Shown piece by piece: positions 3,301-63,921 of a DNA stretch of 64,000 nt. The notes below the pieces were generated by a model. The model worked only from the letters and a program-made list of their open reading frames with translations. It did no database searches and had not been told where the DNA came from. A program made the translations under genes and the position numbers. Positions within the stretch are counted from its first letter, which is position 1, and every line of letters begins with the position of its first letter. This DNA is from Rickettsia typhi (lineage in GTDB: Bacteria; Pseudomonadota; Alphaproteobacteria; Rickettsiales; UBA1997), in contig CAMBFC010000007.1 of assembly GCA_945865905.1 (NCBI GenBank), forward strand, positions 7,706-71,705, given 5' to 3'.

Positions 3301-4443
3301 TATAAATTGCCTTATGGTGCAGCAATCCTGCATAAGAGCGGTTCTGTAGTACAAAAAGCAATGCATTTGGCTGAATGGGATCCTTATAACATTCCAGTTG
3401 TTGCCGAAGTTGATGGCGAAATCAAATATAATGATTTGGCAGAAAGCATTTCACTTCGTGAAAGAATCGACGAAACTTCTGGTGTTTCAACCAAGATCGT
3501 AATGGATTGGAAACAATACAGTAAGCAAGATTTGAAGCCTAGAATCACTATTGGCGATAAAGAATACTTGCTATCAGTTAACACAATCGTTGGCGTTTCT
3601 AACGGCGATGATGTAAAAGCGGGTGATGTTATTGCAAGAATTCCGAAAGAATCTTCAAAAACTCGTGATATTACTGGTGGTCTTCCACGCGTTGCCGAAT
3701 TATTTGAAGCTCGTAAACCGAAAAATGCTTCAATTATCAGTGAAATCGACGGCAGAATTGTATTCGGAAAAGATTACAAAACCAAGCGCCGCATTATTGT
3801 ACAACCTGAAGACGCTTCTAAAGAGCCAATCGAATATGCTGTTGCAAAAAACAAACATTTATTTGTTGGTGAAGGTGATTTTGTTCGTCGTGGCGATATC
3901 TTGGTTGATGGAAATCCAGTTCCACATGATATCCTAAAAATCCTTGGTATGCAAGCCTTCGCCAACTATATGGTGAGCGAAGTGCAAAAAGTTTATCGTA
4001 TGCAAGGTGTAAAAATCGATGATAAACATATCGAAGTTATTATTGGCATGATGATGAGACGCGTTGAAACCGTTGATTCTGGCGATACTACGCTTCTTGC
4101 TGGTGAAGTTGTCGACCGCGATGTATTTGAAGCGATCAATGTTAAAATGATTGCTGAAAAATTGCGTCCGGCGCAGTGCAAACCAGTGTTGCTTGGTATT
4201 ACTAAAGCTTCATTGCAAACTAAATCATTTATTTCTGCAGCTTCTTTTCAAGAAACTACGCGAGTGCTTACTGATTCTTCGGTGCAAGGCAAGTTTGATG
4301 ATTTGAAAGGCTTGAAAGAAAACATTATCGTTGGTCGTTTGATTCCTGCGGGAACAGGCTTATTAACGGCGCAATACCGTGTTGCAGCTCATGCTACAAC
4401 GCACAGCAAACCAATTGTGCAAGAAATGTTTGTTGAAGAATAA
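325..4443 (+). CDS. rpoC: DNA-directed RNA polymerase beta' subunit
   Basis: 1372-aa ORF with N-terminal zinc finger [23 protein letters not shown] and catalytic NADFDGDQM motif; canonical position after rpoB. Confidence 0.98.
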
Positions 4444-4514: not shown

Positions 4515-4630
4515 GTGTTTGGATCTCGATTTACAGATGAATCATCTCCTGCTTATTGATTTTATTTCGCGCGCAAGCACAGCTACATAAAATCAATAAG
4601 CAGGAGATGATTCGTCTGTAACGCACAGCG
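4515..4630 (+). repeat. Family-A hairpin repeat, copy A1
   Basis: Terminus GTGTTTGGATCTCGATTT. Hairpin 4533-4619 has 32-nt arms with one T:G, around the conserved loop ATTTCGCGCGCAAGCACAGCTACAT. Tail TAACGCACAGC. Confidence 0.9.
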
Positions 4631-12192: not shown

Positions 12193-12197
12193 AGTTT

Positions 12198-12568
12198 TAG
12201 ATCTCGTTTTACAGCTTAATTATCTGTTGAAATTGAATTTATTTATCGCAAGTAAATCATTTTATTTTGCGCGCAAGCACAGCTACATAAAATGATTTAC
12301 TTGCGATAAATAAATTCAATTTCAACAGATAATTAAGCTGTAACGCACCAATTTTGTTAGTTTGTTTTAAATATTCTGCAAAGGACTTGTTGTTAGTTTT
12401 TTGCAAAAGATTTACGCATTATTCGTAAGATAGATTGATTGTCTAATTAGGGGCTCTGAGGCGAGTTCTGCTTTTATCGCAAGCTACGCTTGCTTTAATC
12501 AGATGAAAGCGGTGTCTGAGCAGCAGAGCCCCTAATTAGACAATCAATCTATCGTGAAAACGAGATCC
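12198..12568. repeat. Composite ~370-bp repeat element: terminus, family-A hairpin A2, spacer, family-B hairpin B1 (inverted core), inverted terminus
   Basis: TAGATCTCGTTTT at 12198 and AAAACGAGATC ending at 12567 are inverted repeats. A2 hairpin 12211-12341 has perfect 54-nt arms around ATTTTGCGCGCAAGCACAGCTACAT. B1 hairpin is 12429-12553. Confidence 0.9.
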
Positions 12569-12621
12569 AAAAACACGCACCACAAAAAATAGTTAAACAT
12601 TAATAATAAGGTTAAAATTGA

Positions 12622-13440
12622 ATGATTAATCGCAAAACTTCAGTTCATCTACAAGATTTTCCTGACACTTCTTTTTTTGATAGCAATCAAGAATTAGTCG
12701 CCGATATGGATCTTGTTCGTGCTATATGCAGCACGGCTCTATCAATTCGTGATAATAAAAATTTGCGCGTGAGATTGCCGTTAAATGAGTTGAAAGTGAT
12801 TGGTAAAATTGCCAATAGAATATTGCCTTTCAAAGAAATTATCGCCGAAGAAGTAAATGTAAAAAATATTGTAATTGAAGAAAAAATCGAAGGAACTGCT
12901 GAGTTAAAATTGCAAATTAATTTCAAAAAAATTGGTGCAAAATATGGTTCGCGAGTTAAAGAAATCAATGAGGCAGCGCGCAAAGGTGAATGGAAAAAAA
13001 TCGCCGAAAAAGAAATTGAAATTGCTGGCATAAAATTGATTGATGATGAGTTTGAAATTAAATTGATGACCAATAATCAGAACGATAAAAAATTTGTGAT
13101 TGCAGCACTTTCAACCAATGATTGCTTGGTTTCGCTTGATATTGAAGTTTCGCAAGAACTTGCTGATGAAGGTGTGGCGCGTGATATTGTTCGCGCAATT
13201 CAACAAAGCCGCAAAACCGCTGATCTTAATGTTTCTGATCGAATTGAAATCATGCTTTTTTCACCAAATAAAATGATTTTGCAAGTGGCAGAAAAATTTT
13301 CTTCTTATATTTTGCAACAGGTTTTAGGCTTGAATTTAAAGGTTGCAAGTGATATCGAAGAAGTTAAGTCGCAAGCAAAATTTTTCTCCGAAACAAAAAT
13401 TGATGATGGCGAAATTGCCATCGGTATCAGCAATAAATAA
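12622..13440 (+). CDS. ileS: Isoleucyl-tRNA synthetase C-terminal fragment (N-terminally truncated; pseudogene or split gene)
   Basis: 272-aa ORF starting ...SVHLQDFPDTS..., matching only the last quarter (anticodon-binding/C-terminal region) of type-2 IleRS. The upstream sequence is repeat element, not ileS. Confidence 0.6.
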   Translation: MINRKTSVHLQDFPDTSFFDSNQELVADMDLVRAICSTALSIRDNKNLRVRLPLNELKVIGKIANRILPFKEIIAEEVNVKNIVIEEKIEGTAELKLQINFKKIGAKYGSRVKEINEAARKGEWKKIAEKEIEIAGIKLIDDEFEIKLMTNNQNDKKFVIAALSTNDCLVSLDIEVSQELADEGVARDIVRAIQQSRKTADLNVSDRIEIMLFSPNKMILQVAEKFSSYILQQVLGLNLKVASDIEEVKSQAKFFSETKIDDGEIAIGISNK

Positions 13441-20431: not shown

Positions 20432-20655
20432 GTTATAAATTTTTGTGCTATTCTATATTGAGAAAATTCAGTTAATTTAGAAAGTAAGTTAATTAGAAGG
20501 AGAGGCTCTGCTGCTCAGACACCGCGTTCATCTGATTAAAGCAAGCGTAGCTTGCGATGAAACGCAGAACTTGCCTCAGAGCCTCTCCTCCTAATTAACT
20601 TACTTTCTAAATTAACTGAATTTTCTCAATATAGAATAGCACAAAAATTTATAAC
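20432..20655 (+). repeat. Family-B hairpin repeat, copy B2, with ~79-nt arms filling the lgt/queC divergent intergenic region
   Basis: Core GGCTCTGCTGCTCAGACACCGCGTTCATCTGATTAAAGCAAGCGTAGCTTGCGATGAAACGCAGAACTTGCCTCAGAGCC, flanked by inverted arms with a single mismatch. Confidence 0.92.
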
Positions 20656-25829: not shown

Positions 25830-25873
25830 GTTTTTGTTGATAAGTTTTAGATCGAGTCGAATTTTTAGAACTC

Positions 25874-26240
25874 TAGATCTCGTCCTCGGCAAGGCTTGAA
25901 GTGAGGGGCTCTGCTGCTCAGACACCGCACCCATCTGATTTAAGCGAGCGTAGCTCGCGATGGGATGCAGAACTCGCCTCAGAGCCCCTCACTTCAAGCC
26001 TTGCCTTTCTTGGGCTTTTGTGGGTTTTTGGCTTTTTGGGTTTGGATTTGTGCATTGATTTATCTGGTATTAATGGTTTTTACACATTATTCGTAAGATA
26101 GATTGATTGTTTGGGGAAGGGGCTCTGAGGCGACTTCTGCGCTTCATCGCAAGCTACGCTTGCTTTAATCAGATGAACTCGGTGTCTGAGCAGCAGAGCC
26201 CCTTCCCCAAACAATCAATCTATTACAAAAACGAGATCTA
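25874..26240. repeat. Composite ~367-bp repeat element: terminus, family-B hairpin B3 (+), T/G-rich spacer, family-B hairpin B4 (-), inverted terminus
   Basis: TAGATCTCGT at 25874 and ACGAGATCTA at 26231-26240 are inverted repeats. B3 is 25888-26005 with perfect 26-nt arms. B4 is 26098-26223 with perfect 30-nt arms. Confidence 0.92.
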
Positions 26241-26252
26241 AACACACCAACT

Positions 26253-34903: not shown

Positions 34904-36019
34904 ATGAAAAACCTAATAGGATTAACCAAAGAGCAACTAACGCAAGAGCTTATAAACATTGGCGAGAAGCCCTTTCGTGCCGCGCAAATTTGGAATTGGA
35001 TTTATGTTCGTGGTGTGCAAGATTTTTCTGCGATGAGCAACATTTCGAAGGCGACGCAAGAAGTTTTGGCAAAAAATTTTACCCTAGCGCGGCCCATGAT
35101 CCACAAGGATTTGCTCGCTTCTGATGGCACAAGAAAATGGCTGGTAAAATTTGCCGATGGCAATCAAGTTGAGGCAGTTTTTATTCCTGAAGAAACTCGC
35201 GGCACGCTCTGCATCTCGTCGCAAGTCGGTTGCACTTTGGCTTGCAAATTTTGTCATACTGGCACGCAAACTTTGGTGCGCAACCTTGAAGCCTCTGAAA
35301 TTGTGGGTCAAATCATGATCGCTAAAGATTTATTGGATGATTGGAAAAAAATCGGTGTTGGCGATGTAGCAGCTTCACCATCGCGGCAAAAAATCACCAA
35401 TGTAGTGTTTATGGGCATGGGCGAGCCTTTTTATAATTATGAAAATGTTGCCGCAACCGCAAAAATCCTTAATAATGCCGATGGCTTGAGTTTATCTTCG
35501 CGAAGAATCACAATTTCTACTTCGGGCTTAGTGCCAGAAATTTTACGCATGTCAAAAGAGCTAAAAACTGCTCTAGCAATATCGCTGCACGCCACGAATG
35601 ACGAGCTTAGAACCAATATTATGGCGATCAATAAAAGATACCCTCTCGATGAATTAATGAAGGCCTGCAAAATTTATAACAATGAAAATCCGGGGCAAAA
35701 AGTTACTTTTGAATATGTGTTGCTGCGCGATGTTAATGATCGCGATGAACATGCGCGCGAGCTGATTTCACTGATTAATAAATATAATTTAAATGCTAAA
35801 ATAAACCTGATTCCATTTAATCCGTGGATGTCTTGCGGCTATGAAAGATCTAGCGATGAACGCATTGCGCAATTTCAAAAAATTCTGAAAAATAGTGATG
35901 TAGTGGCGCCAATTCGCAAAACTCGTGGTGATGATGTGATGGCGGCTTGCGGTCAGTTAAAATCTGATTCGCAGCGCATTTCTAAGCGCCAAAAAAAAGA
36001 TGATGTGGTTGGTGGTTGA
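34904..36019 (+). CDS. rlmN: 23S rRNA/tRNA adenine-C2 methyltransferase RlmN (radical SAM)
   Basis: FRAAQIWNWIY N-terminus, radical-SAM cluster CTLACKFCHTG, C-terminal AACGQL. Confidence 0.93.
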   Translation: MKNLIGLTKEQLTQELINIGEKPFRAAQIWNWIYVRGVQDFSAMSNISKATQEVLAKNFTLARPMIHKDLLASDGTRKWLVKFADGNQVEAVFIPEETRGTLCISSQVGCTLACKFCHTGTQTLVRNLEASEIVGQIMIAKDLLDDWKKIGVGDVAASPSRQKITNVVFMGMGEPFYNYENVAATAKILNNADGLSLSSRRITISTSGLVPEILRMSKELKTALAISLHATNDELRTNIMAINKRYPLDELMKACKIYNNENPGQKVTFEYVLLRDVNDRDEHARELISLINKYNLNAKINLIPFNPWMSCGYERSSDERIAQFQKILKNSDVVAPIRKTRGDDVMAACGQLKSDSQRISKRQKKDDVVGG

Positions 36020-36160
36020 AAAAGATGGGGATGGGAGTTGGATTGGGATGCTCTGCTGCTCAGACACCGCGCCCATCTGATTTAAGCAAGCGTAGCTTGC
36101 GATGGGACGCAGAACTCGCCTCAGAGCATCCCAATCCAACTCCCATCCCCATCTTTTTCA
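36017..36160 (+). repeat. Family-B hairpin repeat, copy B5 (perfect 39-nt arms; left arm starts on the rlmN stop codon)
   Basis: TGAAAAAGATGGGGATGGGAGTTGGATTGGGATGCTCTG ... core ... CAGAGCATCCCAATCCAACTCCCATCCCCATCTTTTTCA. Confidence 0.92.
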
Positions 36161-36275
36161 ATTCTATTTTTTTTGGCAAAAAAATAGAAGATTAAATAAA
36201 GATTGTTATTTGCTTTTACAAATTCCTATAATTAATTTCGACTTAATAGTTATTGAATAATTAATTAAAATTTTT

Positions 36276-38198: not shown

Positions 38199-38340
38199 GG
38201 CTGAAGAGTCAGTTAGGTAATGCTTGAATGCGAGTTCCATTTTCATCGCAAGCTACGCTTGCTTTAATTCAGATGAAAAGGGTGTCTGAGCAGGCGAGTA
38301 TTACCTAACTGGCTCTTCAGCCGAGGGCAAGATCTATAGT
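38199..38340 (-). repeat. Family-B hairpin repeat, copy B6 (degenerate core) plus degenerate terminus
   Basis: Arms GGCTGAAGAGTCAGTTAGGTAATGCT/AGTATTACCTAACTGGCTCTTCAGCC (two transitions). Apical core CATCGCAAGCTACGCTTGCTTTAATTCAGATG is retained. Tail CCGAGGGCAAGATCTA. Confidence 0.8.
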
Positions 38341-39543: not shown

Positions 39544-42500
39544 TTATTTAAGTGAGTCGATATCTCTTTCGTATCTTGATGCCTCTTGCTCAGCACTTTT
39601 TTGTTCTGCTTTAAAGTCAAGTGCTTTTTGCTTGGCGGTAGAAGCAGTGCTTTCAAGATTAGAAATTTTTGCTGTAGTTGCGGCCGATGTATCTCCCGAT
39701 GCTTTTAATGACGCTATTTCAGCTTGTGCAGCTGCAGCGGCATTTTCTTGCATTTCCATATTTTGTTTTGCTCCCTTTGCCGCTCTTTCAGATTGACTTT
39801 TCATCGCACTGCGCATATTAATCAGCTGTTGATTAACGCTTTCTTTTGATCCAGATACATCTTCTGCAGTTAAAAGAACGCCACTAACGCCGCCACTTAA
39901 TCCAGCGTTACCAATAGTTAATCCGGCATTACCAACAGTTAAGCCGGCATTAGATAGTTGCATGCCAAGGCTATTTCCTCCCGCAGGAGAATCTTTGGCT
40001 TGAGCCGCTAATAGTTCTGCGCGCGCTTTTGCTTCAAAAAGGCTATTTCCATCAATATCAATCAAGCCATCTTTAACGCCAGCTTTTATTTTGCCATTAT
40101 AATCCTTCAAATCATCCCAATTATTGCTATTTAGTTTTGCCAAATGCAAAGCTTCGATTCTTTTAAGTTCAGTCGCGGCATCTTGACGCATTCTGTTGAC
40201 TACTTTTGGATCTTTTACCGACATGATGTCTTTTTCCATTTTATCCAGCATTGACTGCTTGAATAATTCGCGTTTTTGATCGAGCGATTTTAAATCTTTG
40301 TCGAGTTTTTTTTGTAATTGGCGACCGTAAAAGCTATTTTTTGGATCACCCTTACCAAGGGCATCGATTTTTGCAGAAAATACTTCATTTAATTTTTTTC
40401 TATCATCATCATAACCACCATTTTTTAGATAGTTAGAGGCGGCTTTTTCCATGCCGGCGCGGGTTTTTTCAGATAATTGTCGCGCTTTTCTTTCGCTGCC
40501 AATATCCTCTAAAAACCTAATTCTATTAAGAGGATTGAAGCCTTTGCCAGTATTAAACCCAATCGCATCAAGCCAATTATTTTTTCTATTTTCTTCATAG
40601 CCAACTTTGCGCATGAAATTTTTGCCAGTTTCGGCAGAAGCACTTTTGCCTTTTTCAAAAGCTCTTTCTTGCTTATATTGTAAAAATTTATCTTGCAATT
40701 CAGTGTTGTGAGCGAATTTTTTTGCCGCATCACTATCGGATAATTTTCCTTTTTTATTCATAAAGCCTTTTAAGTCTTTCAAATGGCCGTTGATTGATTC
40801 GGCACCGCCCATGGTTTTATCTGCCCATTTTCTTGCCGCGGCTTTTAAATGCTGTTCCATATCTTTTCCGAGAGGGATTTTTGATGGATCTCCCGCCTTT
40901 ATTCTTTTTGCTTCATCTTTTAAGAATTTTTGTAGAGGTTCTTTTTCTAGTTTTTGGGCAATGCGAGAGTCTATTTTGCTAGAGTCAAAATCATATAATG
41001 CTGCTTTTTTTGGATTATTATATTGAAAAGCCAATATTCCATCTTTGCCATTATTCATCGCAAAATTGCGCACATGTTGGTTATAGGCTAGAGTATCAGG
41101 TTTTAAGCCTTTTGATGCGGCGTCTTTTTTTCCTAGAGAAATTGCATTATCAATGACATTATCGCGCAATCTTGTGCGCACGCCGCGAACAGGAATTTTA
41201 TCGAAAACTTGATCTATTTTGCCAGAAAGGCCAGATGCTCGCGATGCTGTGCGTATAGCGCGGAAAGCTGCTCCACCACCAGTAGATAAGCCATTTTTGA
41301 GGGCGCTTCCAGCTAATCCAGCCGCACCTCCCATAGCAATTCCGGCTGTTTTCATTGCGGACGCGTTATTTCCCTCGCCATCACCGTTATTATTTGAAAC
41401 CCCACCAATCGTAATCAACTGCCCCGCCAAATCAGGAATTTTCTTGAGAATTTCCATCAAAATATAAATTAAACCAGCAAGCCCTAAGAACAGTCGAAAC
41501 CAATCCACAAGACCTCTACCGCCTACTTCTGCCCTTAAAATTCCAAAAGAAAAAAAGCCAAAATTAATACTTTCGGTACAAACGCGATAATGCAGCATCT
41601 CAAAAAACTTGCCATCAATAAACATAACGAAAGTGAAGAGAATCAAGAATAACATTACCATTTCGAGAGATCTTGCTCCAATAAATCCCAGCCAGTTTTT
41701 GAACATATCGTTGGTTTGTCCAAAAAGTGAAAAAACAATGAAGATTGGCCCTAATGCAAGCACAAAAATTAGTTTCATCAAAGTGACCGCATAAACTAGT
41801 GCCGCAAGCAACATCACATAAGCAAAGAAAAATATTAACGCATAAATTGCTGCGATATAAACGAAGCCAAAAAAGCTTTCAAAAAATAGGCCCCAAATCT
41901 TTTTTGTAACATTGGCCGAGAAAAGAGATTTTAACATTGTATCAACATAAGAAAAGCGTGAGCCTCCTCCATCTGGGTTGCTGCTTATTGATTGGGCGAT
42001 TTTTATTGGATTACTTGCCTCAATATCGTTGGTGATAAACTCAGAAAACATTGTGATCAAAACATCCATTCCATCTTTAAAAAAAGTGACAACAAATTTA
42101 TTATACCAATACCAACTATCTGGAGTTGTAAAGAATATTACTAAGGATAATTTTAGTAAGCGTGACAGAAGTTCTTTTTTAGTGATTTCAACTATTCCTA
42201 TTAGAGTGGCAAATCCAAAAAATGCGATATAAAGAGAGAGGCATACCTGCAAAGTAGAACTGAAATAGTTATCTTGCACAATGCTGCGATACATAAATTC
42301 TAGTACGCCACCTTTTTTGACGCCATTTTCATCTTTGACGCCCATCATAGAATCTTCAACTATTGAAACTAAAAATTCTAACAGGCCAGTATCGCCATCG
42401 CGACCGATTCCTTCAAGGAAGGTTACATTATATTGGCCAAAATTATCCGAATAATAGCGATCATGAATCATTAATTTTACGAACTCATTTGGTCGGTGAT

Positions 42501-43323
42501 GGGTATCGTTGCCGATATCATTGTTATTGCCATTATTGCCATCCATATCATCTTTAACAAAAATGGCATTATTGGCGCTTCTAAAAACATATTTAGTTTG
42601 GTCTATGCCATTTGCATCTTTGCATTCACCATTGGCATTTCTATTGATAGAGCAAGTCGTTTTTTCTGAAAATAAGTGATAGACTCGAATTGGCGTTTCA
42701 TTGCCACTTACACCAAAAAGCCCTAGATATAAGCCCATTCCAGCGCTGTATTTGCAGGCGCCGCTTTGTTTATCAGGTATTTTTATGGCATGATTTTTAT
42801 CGTAATAGTTAAGTGGAAAATGATAAACTCCCTCATCAGTTACTTTGCCATTAAGTTTAGTGCAACTGCATTTTGTAGAATCGTTTTGATTGATATCAGT
42901 GGAGCAATCTACGGGAAAATCTGTGCCATCTATACCTTGTTCTGGTACAGGTTCTTGATTTTTAGCGCAAATACAATTTTCATCCTTGTTTTTTTTGGAA
43001 CAAAAATTGCAAGTTGAGATGCCGCCAAGCTTAGAATCGCTTACTGCATTACCATACCAAGGAATCCAAGAGCCAGAAATGTGTAAAAGGAATGGTTTGC
43101 CATTGGCGCGAAGCCCAGTTTCATGCCATGATGCCGTTTGACCACCTTCATTGTGATTGTAGACTGTGCCGAAAATGCCGTCATTAACGGGATTGGCTTT
43201 AACTTGAACAAATTCGTTATCAAATTCATCAGCTTCAACGCAATAGTTGCCTGTGCAAGAAGCAAGTAGAATGGTCAAAAAAATCAAACTAAATAATTTA
43301 GCTAATTTTCCTTGCCAATTCAT
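39544..43323 (-). CDS. Giant polytopic membrane protein, VirB6/TrbL-like core with Cys-rich N-terminal domain and long charged C-terminal extension
   Basis: 1259 aa. Lipobox-like LLASC. Multi-TM core (res ~350-660) includes LALGPIFIVFSLFGQTNDMFKNWLGFIG, which resembles the VirB6/TrbL signature. Family assignment is by eye. Confidence 0.5.
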   Translation of the reverse strand: MNWQGKLAKLFSLIFLTILLASCTGNYCVEADEFDNEFVQVKANPVNDGIFGTVYNHNEGGQTASWHETGLRANGKPFLLHISGSWIPWYGNAVSDSKLGGISTCNFCSKKNKDENCICAKNQEPVPEQGIDGTDFPVDCSTDINQNDSTKCSCTKLNGKVTDEGVYHFPLNYYDKNHAIKIPDKQSGACKYSAGMGLYLGLFGVSGNETPIRVYHLFSEKTTCSINRNANGECKDANGIDQTKYVFRSANNAIFVKDDMDGNNGNNNDIGNDTHHRPNEFVKLMIHDRYYSDNFGQYNVTFLEGIGRDGDTGLLEFLVSIVEDSMMGVKDENGVKKGGVLEFMYRSIVQDNYFSSTLQVCLSLYIAFFGFATLIGIVEITKKELLSRLLKLSLVIFFTTPDSWYWYNKFVVTFFKDGMDVLITMFSEFITNDIEASNPIKIAQSISSNPDGGGSRFSYVDTMLKSLFSANVTKKIWGLFFESFFGFVYIAAIYALIFFFAYVMLLAALVYAVTLMKLIFVLALGPIFIVFSLFGQTNDMFKNWLGFIGARSLEMVMLFLILFTFVMFIDGKFFEMLHYRVCTESINFGFFSFGILRAEVGGRGLVDWFRLFLGLAGLIYILMEILKKIPDLAGQLITIGGVSNNNGDGEGNNASAMKTAGIAMGGAAGLAGSALKNGLSTGGGAAFRAIRTASRASGLSGKIDQVFDKIPVRGVRTRLRDNVIDNAISLGKKDAASKGLKPDTLAYNQHVRNFAMNNGKDGILAFQYNNPKKAALYDFDSSKIDSRIAQKLEKEPLQKFLKDEAKRIKAGDPSKIPLGKDMEQHLKAAARKWADKTMGGAESINGHLKDLKGFMNKKGKLSDSDAAKKFAHNTELQDKFLQYKQERAFEKGKSASAETGKNFMRKVGYEENRKNNWLDAIGFNTGKGFNPLNRIRFLEDIGSERKARQLSEKTRAGMEKAASNYLKNGGYDDDRKKLNEVFSAKIDALGKGDPKNSFYGRQLQKKLDKDLKSLDQKRELFKQSMLDKMEKDIMSVKDPKVVNRMRQDAATELKRIEALHLAKLNSNNWDDLKDYNGKIKAGVKDGLIDIDGNSLFEAKARAELLAAQAKDSPAGGNSLGMQLSNAGLTVGNAGLTIGNAGLSGGVSGVLLTAEDVSGSKESVNQQLINMRSAMKSQSERAAKGAKQNMEMQENAAAAAQAEIASLKASGDTSAATTAKISNLESTASTAKQKALDFKAEQKSAEQEASRYERDIDSLK

Positions 43324-50076: not shown

Positions 50077-50178
50077 GATAAATCATCGACTGCTTATTGA
50101 TTTTATGTAGCTGTGCTTGCGCGCGAAATAAAATCAATAAGCAGTCGATGATTTATCGTTAAAGGAGATCTAAACACA
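50077..50178 (-). repeat. Family-A hairpin repeat, copy A4 (inverted orientation)
   Basis: Hairpin 50077-50157 has perfect 29-nt arms around ATGTAGCTGTGCTTGCGCGCGAAAT. Terminus GGAGATCTAAACACA on the right. Confidence 0.9.
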
Positions 50179-50219: not shown

Positions 50220-51791
50220 TTAATTCCGCGGCATCACATCCAAAATTGGCGCAATATTTTTAACAACTCTCCCCGCCACGGGCGCCGCAACCATCCCGCC
50301 AGTATTAAACGAGTAATTAGGATGATCCAAAACCACATAAACCAAATATTTTGGCTGCGAAATTGGAAAAACCGCAATAAAAGAAGCGATAGTTTGCGTT
50401 TCATTATAGCCTTTTCCTTCAACTTTATTCGCCGTGCCAGTTTTGCCACCAACTTCATAACCTTCAATATTAGCAAAGCGTCCTGTACCTTCCATTGCAA
50501 CCTTTCGCAGCATTACACGCATAATCGCCGAAGTTGATTCTTTGATAATACGACGACCATCGGGCTGTTTTTTTAGCTTTAAAAATGATGGATTATAGAA
50601 AATTCCGCCATTGATAATTGCCGCAGTCGCAGTAGCAATATGCAGCGGCGTAACAGCAATACCGTGGCCGTAAGAGATTGTATATAAACTAATATCGCGC
50701 CAATCTTTCGGATAAATCGGGCGACCAAGCCCCGGAAAATCAACCTCCAGCTTCTTCAAAAAATTAATATCTTTCATAAAATCACGCTGATTATCGATAC
50801 CAATTTTTTGCGCGATCTGCACCGTTCCTATGTTGGAGGAATGTGAGAAAATTTCTGCAACAGTCATCTCGCCCTTAAATGGGTGATCATCTTTAATAGT
50901 AAAGCGCCCGTATTTGATTGGGTCGGAGACATTATAAACATCATCCATCGTGATCAAATTTTTTTCAAAAGCGATGGCATTAGTAAAAATTTTGAAGATC
51001 GAGCCAAGCTCATAGACGCCGTTAGTGACGCGGTTAAAGCGTTCATCCTGCGATGCATCTTGCTGCAAATTGGGATCAAAACTTGGCAATGAAGAAAGCG
51101 CCAAAATTTCGCCATTAGTAACATCCATAACCACGCCAGAAGCGGCTTTAGCCTTGAATTCTTCAATGCCATTCAACAATTCATTATTGAGAATATCTTG
51201 CACACGCACATCTGCCGCCAGCTGCAGCTTTTCTTCTTCGCGCAACAGTGATTTATTATATTGCATTTCCATGCCCGCAAGGCCCTGCCGATCTAGGTCT
51301 ACATAGCCAACAAGATGCGACAAAATTGATCTTTGCGGATAAACCCGAATGCGATCATCCTCAAAAAGCAGGCCCGCCATTTTTAAATTTTGAACCCGCT
51401 CTTCTTGTGCAGGAGTAACATTGCGGCGAATTAACACCCAACCCTTATGGCTTTTATTTGATTTGCGATCAGAGATTTTTTTGATAATTTCTTGATAAGT
51501 TAAATCAGGAAAAATAGTGACCAAGCCTTTAGCAATAAGGTTTGCATCCTTCACCAAAATATTACTAACATAAAGTGATTTTGTTTTTAAATCAGTAGCC
51601 ACCAAAACATCATTGCGATCAACAATATCGCCGCGCTTATTGATTTTATTGAGGTCGTAGATGAATTTAATTTTGACCTTATCGCCAAATCCCGCCAAAA
51701 AAAATAGGCGCAAAATAATGGCAATAAAAATTGTTAGGATAAAAAAATAAACAAAAACTAAGCGACTTTTTTTAAGTTCTGCAATTGCCAT
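50220..51791 (-). CDS. ftsI: Peptidoglycan D,D-transpeptidase (class B PBP, FtsI-like)
   Basis: N-terminal TM anchor plus transpeptidase motifs SIFK (SxxK), SSN (SxN) and KTGT. Confidence 0.88.
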   Translation of the reverse strand: MAIAELKKSRLVFVYFFILTIFIAIILRLFFLAGFGDKVKIKFIYDLNKINKRGDIVDRNDVLVATDLKTKSLYVSNILVKDANLIAKGLVTIFPDLTYQEIIKKISDRKSNKSHKGWVLIRRNVTPAQEERVQNLKMAGLLFEDDRIRVYPQRSILSHLVGYVDLDRQGLAGMEMQYNKSLLREEEKLQLAADVRVQDILNNELLNGIEEFKAKAASGVVMDVTNGEILALSSLPSFDPNLQQDASQDERFNRVTNGVYELGSIFKIFTNAIAFEKNLITMDDVYNVSDPIKYGRFTIKDDHPFKGEMTVAEIFSHSSNIGTVQIAQKIGIDNQRDFMKDINFLKKLEVDFPGLGRPIYPKDWRDISLYTISYGHGIAVTPLHIATATAAIINGGIFYNPSFLKLKKQPDGRRIIKESTSAIMRVMLRKVAMEGTGRFANIEGYEVGGKTGTANKVEGKGYNETQTIASFIAVFPISQPKYLVYVVLDHPNYSFNTGGMVAAPVAGRVVKNIAPILDVMPRN

Positions 51792-54329: not shown

Positions 54330-54507
54330 GTAGAGAATTAGGTTTGAGTTATAAATTATCTCGTGAGTATGGGAGAGGAGCTCTGAGGCGAGTTCTGCGC
54401 TTCATCGCAAGCTACGCTTGCTTAAATCAGATGAACGCGGTGTCTGAGCAGCAGAGCTCCTCTCCCATACTCACGAGATAATTTATAACTAAAACCTAAT
54501 TCTCTAC
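54330..54507 (-). repeat. Family-B hairpin repeat, copy B7 (56-nt arms; right arm overlaps the last 3 codons plus stop of the downstream gene)
   Basis: Arms GTAGAGAATTAGGTTTGAGTTATAAATTATCTCGTGAGTATGGGAGAGGAGCTCTG and its complement, with one G:A mismatch. Typical inverted B core. Confidence 0.92.
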
Positions 54508-59120: not shown

Positions 59121-59588
59121 ATGCGTAGAAGAGCTGCACAAGTAAGAAAAATCATTCCAGATGCCAAATATGGCGAAATCATCGTTTCTCGATTTGTTAA
59201 TCGTTTGATGGATGATGGCAAAAAATCAGTTGTTGAAAAAGCTATTTACCAAGCTTTCGATGAAATTGAAAAAAAATTCAAAAGAAACCCAGTTGAGGTT
59301 TTTAAAGAAGCTATGGATAATGTAACTCCAAAAGTTGAAGTTAGATCTCGCAGAATTGGCGGCGCAACTTACCAAATTCCAGTTGAAGTTTCTCCTAGAC
59401 GCGGTTCAGCTTTGGCTTTAAAATGGCTAAAAATTGCAATCTGCAATATCAAAGGAAAAGGCCTATCTAACAAAGTTCAATTCGTTATTGTTGAATCTCT
59501 AGAAAATAAAGGTTGGGCAGTTAAAAAACGCGAAGAAGTTTTCAAAATGGCTGAAGCAAACAAAGCTTTTGCTCACTATCGTTGGTAG
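59121..59588 (+). CDS. rpsG: 30S ribosomal protein S7
   Basis: MRRRAAQVRKIIPDAKYG...GGATYQIPVEV...AFAHYRW; 155 aa. Confidence 0.98.
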   Translation: MRRRAAQVRKIIPDAKYGEIIVSRFVNRLMDDGKKSVVEKAIYQAFDEIEKKFKRNPVEVFKEAMDNVTPKVEVRSRRIGGATYQIPVEVSPRRGSALALKWLKIAICNIKGKGLSNKVQFVIVESLENKGWAVKKREEVFKMAEANKAFAHYRW

Positions 59589-63784: not shown

Positions 63785-63921
63785 TTTTATTTAGATCTTA
63801 TGCCCTTGCTTAAGCCTGCCTTCAACAAATAATTCACCTGCTGTTTATTAATTTTATTTCGCGCGCAAGCACAGCTACATAAAATCAATAAACAGCAGGT
63901 GAATTATTTGTAACGCACAGC
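63785..63921 (+). repeat. Family-A hairpin repeat, copy A5
   Basis: Degenerate terminus TTTAGATCTTATG. Hairpin 63826-63910 has 31-nt arms with one A:C around ATTTCGCGCGCAAGCACAGCTACAT. Tail TAACGCACAGC. Confidence 0.9.

What the first reader, a model, noticed from the sequence alone, without database searches (positions are those of the whole stretch)
12198..12568. Two ~370-bp composite elements bounded by an inverted TAGATCTCG terminus, each holding two hairpin modules
12198-12568 (A2 + spacer + B1) and 25874-26240 (B3 + spacer + B4) are almost the same length (371 and 367 bp). Both start with TAGATCTCGT and end with ACGAGATC(T/C)(A), which form terminal inverted repeats. Both have a T/G-rich spacer ending in TTTAC(G/A)CATTATTCGTAAGATAGATTGATTGT. 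The same ~18-nt terminus (consensus GTGTTTAGATCTCGTTTT, containing the AGATCT palindrome) sits on one side only of the solo hairpins A1, A4 and A5, and in degenerate form on A3 and B6. It is absent from B2, B5 and B7, three of the four copies with the longest arms (79, 39 and 56 nt; A2 has 54-nt arms yet keeps a terminus). This looks like a modular non-autonomous element of terminus plus hairpin that can occur singly or as head-to-head pairs. No transposase gene is in the window.
Basis: partly seen in the sequence, partly recalled or inferred. Interest (0 to 1): 0.7.

Follow-up and report, generated by a model that had tools for sequence, protein, structure and literature searches.

The report
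Paired hairpin repeats between bacterial genes
The two ~370-bp "composites" are back-to-back pairs of a repeated hairpin module that has recently spread between the housekeeping genes of an uncultured freshwater Rickettsiales bacterium, a new variant of the small palindromic repeats known from other bacteria.

Summary

Each unit is polar: a one-sided "leader" (GTGTTTAGATCTCG...), a long hairpin with a conserved asymmetric core, and a tail. The arms differ between copies yet stay 97-100% self-complementary. The B core is a covarying structure: 96.8% of cells paired, 20 of 29 pairs changed on both sides. Its invariant loops are CTCAGACACC and GAACTCG. Mismatches are A.C on the leader strand 35:3, so the complementary strand is the one that folds.

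The composites are convergent pairs of two units, leaders outward. This arrangement was seen in 11 of 11 adjacent pairs (10 loci). They are not one TIR-bounded transposon and not duplicates of each other: right halves 82% identical, left halves unrelated.

Related metagenome contigs show gain of both composites relative to outgroups with compact spacers. They also show a separate B3 indel, and a recent loss of A2 that left a perfect palindrome (hairpin-templated repair). One core is flipped.

The family occurs in one of 185,579 species genomes. No transposase is in the window and no Rfam, plasmid or phage match was found. The trans-acting factor and the nucleic acid involved (ssDNA or RNA) remain unknown.

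The parts
12193..12210 (+). Leader of unit A2 (AGTTTTAGATCTCGTTTT); left 'terminus' of composite 1
12209..12343 (+). A2 hairpin: 61-62-nt arms around the A core (CGCGCAAGCACAG). Absent in L006/L007; an orthologue is present in L044/L045
12344..12426 (.). Spacer made of the two tails: the A2 tail (CGCACC...) meets the B1 tail. TTTACGCATTATTCGTAAG at 12411-12429 forms a small TTACG/CGTAA hairpin
12427..12555 (-). B1 hairpin (leader orientation is the - strand), core 12459-12523. In L006/L007 its arms run on into the leader on both sides (49-nt perfect arms)
12557..12574 (-). Leader of unit B1 (GTTTTTGGATCTCGTTTT); right 'terminus' of composite 1
25870..25887 (+). Leader of unit B3 (ACTCTAGATCTCGTCCTC); left 'terminus' of composite 2. 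A second degenerate leader-like copy lies at ~25845-25858
25888..26005 (+). B3 hairpin (GGC subfamily), core 25914-25979. Absent, together with its leader and ~14 nt of tail, in L001/L003/L038
26006..26097 (.). Spacer: the T/G-rich tail of B3, then a remnant resembling a decayed A unit (TTGATTTATCTGG, an A-type 3' arm), then the tail TTTACACATTATTCGTAAG (26079-26097) of B4
   Evidence: interpretation of the remnant is inference
26098..26223 (-). B4 hairpin, core 26128-26193; paralogue of B1 (right halves 82% identical)
26228..26245 (-). Leader of unit B4 (GTGTTTAGATCTCGTTTT, exact consensus), 8 nt before the divIC start codon
4515..4621 (+). Solo unit A1 (leader 4515-4532 plus hairpin 4531-4621)
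20432..20655 (+). Solo unit B2: 79-nt arms, no leader. It fills the divergent lgt/queC-like spacer. Its core is inverted in the orthologue L028
34774..34866 (+). Solo unit A3 (degenerate leader upstream)
36016..36161 (+). Solo unit B5 (TTGAAAAA subfamily), followed by a T-run and a small A/T hairpin
38199..38322 (-). Solo unit B6 (GGC subfamily, degenerate inner stem)
50077..50177 (-). Solo unit A4 (hairpin 50077-50157, leader 50160-50177)
54330..54507 (-). Solo unit B7: 56-nt arms, no leader
63825..63911 (+). Solo unit A5 (leader-like TTTAGATCT ~30 nt upstream)

Best explanation
What it is. A lineage-specific family of interspersed, nested-palindrome DNA repeats, of the general kind of REP/BIME/REPIN and MITE-like elements. 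It has recently expanded in the intergenic spacers of a clade of uncultured freshwater Rickettsiales.

The unit. Each unit is polar. It has a short leader (GTGTTTAGATCTCG...), then a long hairpin, then a tail. The hairpin arms are free to vary in sequence but are kept complementary. The apex is a conserved asymmetric core: an internal loop CTCAGACACC / GAACTCG, helix P2, and helix P3 with a GTA loop. The A hairpins share the B outer architecture but carry a short core that resembles the apical (P3) part of the B core; that A is a cut-down B is my inference.

The composites. The two ~370-bp composites are two such units sitting tail-to-tail with leaders outward, which is the family's standard way of pairing. 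The 'terminal inverted repeat' is therefore the two leaders.

Shown:
- the units are gained and lost;
- the arms are re-templated on one another;
- cores can flip by arm-arm recombination;
- short patches are exchanged between copies.

Inferred:
- the unit acts through a hairpin extruded from one particular strand, the complement of the leader strand, where the core loop can form a purine-rich non-canonical helix and arm mismatches are G.T/G.U;
- the conserved loop is the recognition site of a trans-acting protein encoded elsewhere in the genome, which drives spread. My leading guess is a single-strand-specific nuclease/transposase of the REP-RAYT kind;
- new units land preferentially beside the tail of a resident unit in the opposite orientation.
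For: Copy number and range. There are 12 copies in 64 kb. The CM finds 49 B copies in 249 kb. All 48 distinct copies are intergenic. Of 185,579 species genomes, only one, MAG 'Rickettsiales bacterium Baikal-deep-G64', matches the core pattern. Twenty-five metagenome contigs match, mostly from one lake sample.

Structure. 96.8% of cells are paired against 78% in shuffles and 36-40% when slid. Twenty of 29 pairs change on both sides, in 244 cells. The loop motifs persist in copies found by the CM only and in distant relatives L042 and L043.

Strand asymmetry. Mismatches are A.C/C.A versus G.T/T.G 35:3 in whole arms and 28:2 in the modelled helices. The complementary strand folds 4.5-7.5 kcal/mol better in 3 of 3 cases.

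Pairing rule. All 11 adjacent pairs are convergent.

Gain.
- L046 (about 88-92% nt identity) has ugd overlapping the next gene, with no composite 1.
- L042 has a 72-nt spacer at that site.
- L047 has a 45-nt pdhB-divIC spacer and L048 a 100-nt one, with no composite 2.
- R1 hits are 0-1 per 8-21 kb in the outgroups, against 7 in the window.

Loss with templated repair. L006/L007 are 99.8-99.9% identical to the window but lack A2 and both tails. The 219 nt are replaced by CACA, the exact complement of the opposite arm, giving 49-nt arms with one G.T mismatch. The A2 orthologue in the more distant L044/L045 shows that this is a loss.

B3 indel. Core flip B2/L028. Half-converted P2 in the B4 of L001.

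No known-family match in Rfam, and no match in plasmids or phages.
Against: - No transposase, recombinase, HUH or RT gene is in the window or in the gene tables of the related contigs I read, so the trans factor is hypothetical.
- No target-site duplication or fixed target sequence could be defined.
- For the B3 indel, gain and loss are equally parsimonious.
- Arms differ between copies, which simple copy-and-paste of a master element does not explain. Fast arm turnover with arm-to-arm correction has to be assumed.
- Orthologous copies kept over 82-92% nucleotide identity, with unchanged loops and compensated helices, look like purifying selection at each locus. That fits a host-useful RNA as well as, or better than, a selfish element.
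- The 5' loop motif was part of the search pattern, so its invariance in pattern-derived loci is partly ascertainment.
- The mismatch counts are not phylogenetically independent.
Confidence: 0.6

Rival explanations
1. Each ~370-bp composite is a single non-autonomous transposon (MITE) bounded by TAGATCTCG terminal inverted repeats. It is mobilised as one piece by a DDE-type transposase encoded elsewhere. Solo hairpins are half-elements or remnants.
For: - Inverted leaders bound both composites.
- Composite 1 is absent as a whole from L046 and L042, and composite 2 from L047 and L048.
- A+B pairs with the same layout recur at other loci: L012/L018 and L036.
- The B4 spacer contains what looks like a decayed A unit between a leader-like GGTGACTTAGATTTC and the B4 tail.
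- REPINs offer a precedent: inverted doublets are the mobile unit and singlets are remnants (PMC3337134).
Against: - The halves come from different subfamilies. Left halves are 51% identical, which means unrelated.
- The halves are lost or gained separately.
- No target-site duplication is seen.
- The DNA gained at the ugd site extends ~50 nt beyond the right terminus.
- Most units are solo and carry the leader on one side only, and whole subfamilies have no leader.
- No transposase was found.
Confidence: 0.15
2. The units are primarily functional structured RNAs or cis-acting RNA modules of the host. Candidates are 3'-end or insulator hairpins, back-to-back terminators, RNase III-type processing sites, or an independently transcribed small RNA family. 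The conserved GA-rich internal loop would bind a protein. Gain and loss would be ordinary turnover of such modules.
For: - Strong covariation with invariant loops.
- The G.U-type mismatch bias is the classic signature of RNA helices.
- One strand folds better.
- Orthologous copies are retained between species at 82-92% identity, with compensated arm changes and unchanged loops: L013/L021, L017/L033, B2/L028.
- Tails in the leader orientation are T-rich in two subfamilies (TTTCTTGAGATTTTTTT, TTCTATTTTTTTTGG), so a convergent pair looks like back-to-back terminators.
Against: - Orientation relative to co-directional flanking genes is 9:9.
- The strand favoured by the mismatch bias is the opposite of the one with the T-rich tails.
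- No conserved promoter was found.
- A core can be flipped without loss of the element.
- Close outgroups manage with 45-100-nt spacers, or overlapping genes, at the same sites.
- No Rfam family matches.
- G.T tolerance applies equally to single-stranded DNA hairpins.
Confidence: 0.22
3. The two composites are a segmental duplication of each other, or the termini are chance matches.
For: The right ~170 nt (tail + B + leader) are 82% identical.
Against: - Left halves are unrelated (51%).
- The termini occur 4-5 times against 0.1 expected and recur beside hairpins in other contigs and species.
- The two loci were filled independently relative to different outgroups.
Confidence: 0.02

Closest known systems
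REP / BIME / REPIN elements with their RAYT transposase (Enterobacteria, Pseudomonas)
   Same: - Many intergenic palindromic copies.
- The units are polar because the palindrome is imperfect.
- Units typically occur in inverted pairs separated by a spacer, with singlets as remnants (PMC3337134, PMC3116915).
- Vertical persistence within a lineage.
- Presumed action as a hairpin on one DNA strand.
   Different: - Units here are 80-225 nt rather than ~20-40 nt.
- Conservation is inverted: the apex/core is conserved and the arms vary.
- The partners of a pair are different subfamilies that do not pair with each other.
- No GTAG-type 5' tetranucleotide was seen.
- No RAYT gene has been found (not testable genome-wide here).
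Bacterial MITEs such as Correia elements (Neisseria), ERIC/IRU, and Rickettsia palindromic elements (from my own knowledge)
   Same: - Size of 100-400 bp.
- Hairpin-forming.
- Lineage-specific bursts.
- Presence/absence polymorphism.
- Located next to genes, where they may add terminators, promoters or RNase III sites.
   Different: - Those families are conserved along their whole length and have TIRs plus target duplications (Correia: TA).
- RPEs often sit in frame inside genes.
- Here 0 of 48 copies are inside ORFs, no duplication is seen, the leader is one-sided, and the arms are copy-specific.
Quasipalindrome correction by intrastrand template switching (E. coli; PMC7202029), and arm-to-arm gene conversion of large palindromes
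   Same: The L006/L007 allele replaces a 219-nt asymmetry with 4 nt complementary to the other arm. Arm differences between orthologues are always mirrored. These are the outcomes that mechanism predicts.
   Different: This is a maintenance mechanism, not an element family. Here it would operate on hundreds of natural long palindromes rather than on short reporter quasipalindromes.
Hairpin-forming repeats of organelle genomes (sponge mitochondrial RHE, fungal double-hairpin elements; PMC2800124 seen in the search, not read)
   Same: Intergenic, proliferating hairpin and double-hairpin modules in an alphaproteobacteria-derived genome.
   Different: No sequence relationship was tested. Those are short GC-rich hairpins without a conserved asymmetric core.

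Membership tests
REP/REPIN-RAYT | Short (about 20-40 nt) imperfect palindrome with a conserved 5' tetranucleotide (GTAG-like) | tested here: not met
   Units are 81-224 nt hairpins with a 13-66-nt core. The conserved flank is GTGTTTAGATCTCG, 4-12 nt from the stem foot.
REP/REPIN-RAYT | Many extragenic copies, commonly as inverted doublets separated by a spacer | tested here: met
   48 of 48 distinct copies are intergenic. All 11 adjacent pairs are inverted with leaders outward. The partners are not copies of each other.
REP/REPIN-RAYT | A cognate single-copy RAYT (Y1/HUH transposase, PF01797) in the same genome, usually flanked by the repeats | not testable with these tools
   None in the 64-kb window or in the precomputed Pfam gene tables of the related contigs fetched with the look-up of encoding contigs. 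The ORFs of the pattern-derived loci L010-L041 were not annotated. The rest of the genome is not available to me.
MITE (DDE-transposon derivative, e.g. Correia) | Terminal inverted repeats at both ends of every copy | tested here: not met
   The leader is on one side only in solo units A1, A4, L017, L033 and L036. It is absent in B2, B5, B7 and other long-armed copies. It is on both sides only in composites and in the L006 allele.
MITE (DDE-transposon derivative, e.g. Correia) | Target-site duplication flanking the insert | tested here: inconclusive
   Three filled/empty comparisons show no clean duplication. The B3 indel is flanked by a ~28-nt diverged direct repeat. The empty sites for whole composites come from genomes only 80-92% identical, so short duplications could be obscured.
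MITE (DDE-transposon derivative, e.g. Correia) | A related autonomous IS with the same ends | not testable with these tools
   No IS in the window or loci.
Rickettsia palindromic elements (RPE) | Insertion in frame within protein-coding genes as well as intergenic; sequence similarity to RPE-1 to RPE-8 | tested here: not met
   0 of 48 copies lie inside an ORF. Sequence similarity to published RPE consensus sequences was not tested, because none were on hand.
Any described RNA family (Rfam 15) | Score at or above the family's gathering threshold | tested here: not met
   Only two tRNAs in the window reach the gathering threshold. At E<=10 over composite 2, only long-hairpin miRNA models appear, far below threshold.
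IS200/IS605-derived PATE/MITE | Two subterminal hairpins in the same orientation on one strand, no TIR, insertion 3' of a fixed tetra/pentanucleotide | tested here: not met
   The two hairpins of a pair are always in opposite orientation. No constant short sequence abuts the units.
Integron attC sites | R''/L''...L'/R' boxes (GTTRRRY core), each site following a cassette ORF in a one-directional array next to intI | tested here: not met
   Here the apex is conserved rather than the base boxes. The neighbours are housekeeping genes in both orientations, and no integrase is present.

The most novel reading that the evidence does not exclude
The units are not passive junk. They would be a previously undescribed class of strand-specific structured nucleic-acid module. 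A conserved GA-rich internal loop (AGGCGAG/UGAGCAG with CGAGUUC...GGUGUCUGAG on the folding strand) sits on a sequence-free, perfectly paired rod. A dedicated, still unknown protein would read that loop. This could be either a new kind of hairpin-targeting mobilisation system unrelated to RAYT/IS200, or a multi-copy RNA with a cellular role (insulation or processing of transcripts). Arm perfection would be actively maintained by hairpin-templated repair.
Probability: 0.25. Interest if true: 0.75.

Novelty: new variant of a known kind. Interest (0 to 1): 0.55.

Why it matters
If this holds, it is a natural system in which hundreds of long perfect palindromes persist in a small genome. Their evolution can be watched in lake populations:
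- gain of units;
- loss by hairpin-templated repair;
- flipping of the core;
- short-patch conversion between copies.

The pattern of conservation is the reverse of REP or MITE families: a conserved asymmetric core on free-varying arms. Together with a clear strand bias, this points to a specific reader protein that is not yet known.

On the practical side, these repeats break short-read assemblies of this lineage. They also changed local gene structure: an overlapping ugd/DUF5915 gene pair was split and the Ugd C-terminus altered.

Tried and rejected
- Known RNA family. Rfam at gathering threshold over the window, and at E<=10 over composite 2, gave nothing but tRNAs and generic miRNA-hairpin noise.
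- Phage or plasmid origin. No exact core in viral contigs and no blastn match in plasmids or phages.
- Promoters or terminators in the composites. The consensus scans were at or below shuffle expectation.
- Orientation rule relative to genes. The window alone suggested 9 of 11 co-directional, but all loci together give 9:9, so I dropped it.
- Arms as antisense or 'guide' sequences. Arm sequences match nothing else in 300 kb except their own partners and orthologues. The one exception is a 16-nt hit in the PBP gene, probably chance.
- Arms made by fold-back copying of local flanking DNA. The empty sites (L001, L046, L047) contain no single copy of the arms.
- Insertion at the centre of pre-existing palindromes. 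This was tempting because the L047 spacer holds a small leader-like palindrome, but the two polymorphic inserts are not at palindrome centres.
- L010 as an orthologue of B5. Rejected: only the element matches, so they share a subfamily, not a locus.
- An apparent 132-nt insertion in sucB of L006. It is a scaffold gap.
- The leader as a genome-wide marker. At 3 mismatches the 14-mer is barely above shuffles (38 against 23), so only hits with 2 or fewer mismatches are informative.

Full report

Yes. The window is 37.7% G+C and densely packed with housekeeping genes. Exact TAGATCTCG occurs four times against 0.12 expected. Three of these are the ends of the two composites: 12198+, 25874+ and 26232-. 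The fourth, at 59342, lies in the rpsG coding sequence and is chance. The 18-mer consensus with up to 3 mismatches occurs five times against 0.09 expected, always next to a hairpin.

The inverted-repeat search recovers all twelve hairpins.
- Family A has five copies with an 11-13-nt centre.
- Family B has seven copies with a 65-66-nt centre.

- ATAGATTGATTGT is the outer arm of B1 and B4, not spacer.
- The right ~170 nt of the two composites are paralogous (82% identical), while the left halves are unrelated (51%). The composites are therefore not a segmental duplication.

**2. Anatomy of a unit**

I oriented all copies by their core. Each unit then reads: leader (GTGTTTAGATCTCG...), a few bases, 5' arm, core, 3' arm, tail.

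The arms share no sequence between subfamilies, yet mostly remain 97-100% self-complementary (26-81 nt). Subfamilies share outer arm segments and flanks:
- GGCTGAAGAG... with leader TAGATCTCGTCCTC and tail TTTCTTGAG-T-run;
- GATAAATCA..CTGCTTATTG and ATAGATTGATTGT with tail TTACGAATAATGCG;
- TTGAAAAAGATG with a T-run and a small A/T hairpin;
- long A/T-rich arms with no leader.

Some contigs carry A-type outer arms, leader and tail around a B core (L012, L015, L017, L018, L033, L036). The A centre GCAAGCACAGCT also resembles the B apex GCAAGCGTAGCT. I therefore read A as a cut-down B (inference).

**3. The core is a conserved structure**

I built a covariance model with this layout:
- a 14-bp stem;
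- a 13x11 internal loop;
- P2 of 9 bp with a bulge;
- a 10-nt loop;
- P3 of 6 bp with a GTA loop.

It finds 49 copies in 249 kb. On that alignment:
- 96.8% of cells pair, against 78% in shuffles and 36-40% when slid;
- 20 of 29 pairs change on both sides, in 244 cells.

The loop words CTCAGACACC and GAACTCG are kept in three unbiased settings:
- in copies the search pattern could not have selected;
- in a distant relative whose apical part is entirely different (L043);
- in a minimal version (L042).

Caveat: in the pattern-derived loci the 5' word was imposed by my search pattern.

**4. One strand is special**

Arm mismatches on the leader strand are A.C/C.A 35 times and G.T/T.G 3 times. In the modelled helices the ratio is 28:2. 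On the complementary ('F') strand these are therefore G.T/G.U wobbles.

The F strand folds 4.5-7.5 kcal/mol better in three of three tests. By inspection, its internal loop can form A.G, G.A, G-C, C-G, G.A, A.G, G.U (AGGCGAG against UGAGCAG).

The counts are not phylogenetically independent, but the bias also holds within family A (7:2). Unit orientation is nevertheless random with respect to co-directional flanking genes, 9:9. The folding strand is therefore not simply the mRNA strand. The data cannot say whether the active form is single-stranded DNA or RNA.

**5. What the composites are**

Every adjacent pair I could find has the same arrangement. The first unit is in leader orientation and the second in the opposite orientation, so the leaders face outward and the tails meet in the spacer. 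This holds for the two window composites and for L011, L012, L018, L036, L039, L029, L035, L030 and L031, that is 11 pairs at 10 independent loci. There are no tandem pairs and no pairs with leaders inward.

The partners belong to different subfamilies. The 'terminal inverted repeat' is thus the two leaders of two units.

**6. Comparative evidence for dynamics**

(a) Composite 1.
- Contigs L006 and L007 are 99.75-99.95% identical to the window but lack A2 and both tails. There, 219 nt are replaced by CACA, the exact complement of the opposite arm, so B1 becomes a 49-nt-armed palindrome with one G.T mismatch that runs into the leader on both sides.
- L044 and L045 (88.5% nt identity) carry an A2 orthologue. 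The L006 allele is therefore a recent loss.
- Its form is what hairpin-templated (template-switch) repair predicts (mechanism as in PMC7202029).
- L046 (about 88-92% nt identity across segments) has ugd overlapping the next gene, with none of the ~436 nt present. L042 has a 72-nt spacer. The composite was therefore gained in the window lineage.

(b) Composite 2.
- L047 and L048 have 45- and 100-nt spacers with no unit.
- L001, L003 and L038 (97% nt identity) have B4 but not B3.
- The window, L002, L004 and L005 have both units.
- For B3, gain and loss are equally parsimonious. The indel is flanked by a ~28-nt diverged direct repeat.

(c) In L028 (92.7% identity) the B2 core is inverted relative to the flanking genes, and about 6-8 arm positions differ, all mirrored in the other arm.

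(d) The B4 of L001 carries half of a P2 helix of the B3 type opposite an unchanged partner strand. This is short-patch exchange between copies.

(e) Outgroups have 0-1 model hits per 8-21 kb, against 7 B and 5 A units in 64 kb here.

(f) The core pattern occurs in one of 185,579 species genomes, a Lake Baikal Rickettsiales MAG, and in 25 metagenome contigs. It occurs in no viral contig and has no match in plasmids or phages.

**7. Best explanation and its limits**

The data fit a young, expanding family of nested-palindrome repeats.
- The units are polar.
- They pair convergently.
- Their arms are kept complementary by arm-to-arm templating.
- Their conserved asymmetric loop is probably the handle for a trans-acting protein working on one strand.

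The closest analogues are REP/BIME/REPIN elements, in which inverted doublets are the unit and singlets are remnants (PMC3337134, PMC3116915). This family fails the size and sequence criteria for REP, and the RAYT criterion cannot be tested here.

No transposase, recombinase or RT is present in the window or in the annotated related contigs.

An RNA-module reading remains a serious rival.
- In its favour: covariation, the G.U-type bias, orthologues retained between species, and T-rich tails that would make a pair look like back-to-back terminators.
- Against it: the T-rich tails lie on the strand the mismatch bias does not favour, orientation is random, and close relatives do without the units at the same sites.

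**8. Verdict**

The family is a new variant of a known kind, with several unexplained regularities:
- the strict convergent pairing;
- the strand bias;
- C-poor 5' arms on both strands.

These make it moderately interesting.

Noticed in passing
window 12622-13440: A stand-alone 272-aa ORF that is only a PF19302/DUF5915 domain. From memory it looks like an isoleucyl-tRNA synthetase C-terminal region, which I did not test. It is conserved as a separate gene in relatives (L042, L046). In L046 it overlaps ugd by 8 nt, so the insertion of composite 1 split an overlapping gene pair and shortened Ugd by 5 residues.
   Followed up: partly
window 20432-20655 and L028 1198-1425: B2 fills the entire divergent spacer between lgt and a queC-like gene, ending 8 nt from each start codon. 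Both 5' regions must therefore lie in the identical arms. The core is inverted in the 92.7%-identical orthologue.
   Followed up: partly
all units (arms): The 5' arms are C-poor (12.5% C against 29% G). Because the arms are palindromic, this holds on both strands. It would fit cytosine loss from strands exposed after a central break and resection, or from non-template strands of transcription converging on the core.
   Followed up: no
L008, L009, L044, L045 (ends in A2); L006, L007 (ends in B2 arm); L030, L038: Short-read metagenome contigs repeatedly stop inside these hairpins. The family fragments assemblies of this lineage.
   Followed up: no
L006 8357-8488: A run of N plus ~120 nt not present in the window, inside sucB. 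This is a scaffolding artefact, not an insertion.
   Followed up: yes
L013 ~3875-3913 and L021 ~1817-1860: A partial direct duplicate of the 5' arm plus the start of the core lies just upstream of the unit. In L021 the duplicate keeps the older arm word GAGTT, while both arms of the hairpin now read AACCT/AGGTT.
   Followed up: partly
L042 2400-2490 (orthologous to window 4531-4621): At the A1 site a distant relative has A1-like outer arms. Its inner hairpin is different: the arm words are A-type words in swapped order, and it has no A core.
   Followed up: no
window 51635-51650: A 16-nt exact match to the A1/A4 arm lies inside the penicillin-binding-protein gene next to A4 (E about 0.001 in 300 kb). 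Probably chance.
   Followed up: no
window 39544-43323 (-): A 1258-aa protein with a TrbL/VirB6 domain. I read this as consistent with a Rickettsiales-type type IV secretion system (from memory). The Rickettsiales placement itself rests on the record names.
   Followed up: no
window 36162-36190; L010, L020, L023, L031, L035: Units of the TTGAAAAA subfamily are followed by a small A/T hairpin, TCTATTTTTTTGGnAAAAAAATAGA. It reads the same in both directions, like a bidirectional terminator.
   Followed up: no
L049 14963-15310 (3 kb beyond the window end): A UPF0102/YraN gene, with faint Pfam hits to Hjc and NucS nuclease families. It is widespread in bacteria, but worth a look as a structure-specific nuclease in a genome full of cruciform-prone DNA.
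   Followed up: no
L047 1892-1936: The 45-nt 'empty' pdhB-divIC spacer contains a small palindrome, GAATCTTC-AA-GAAGATCC. Its halves resemble the leader and its complement. It could be a footprint, a proto-site or coincidence.
   Followed up: no
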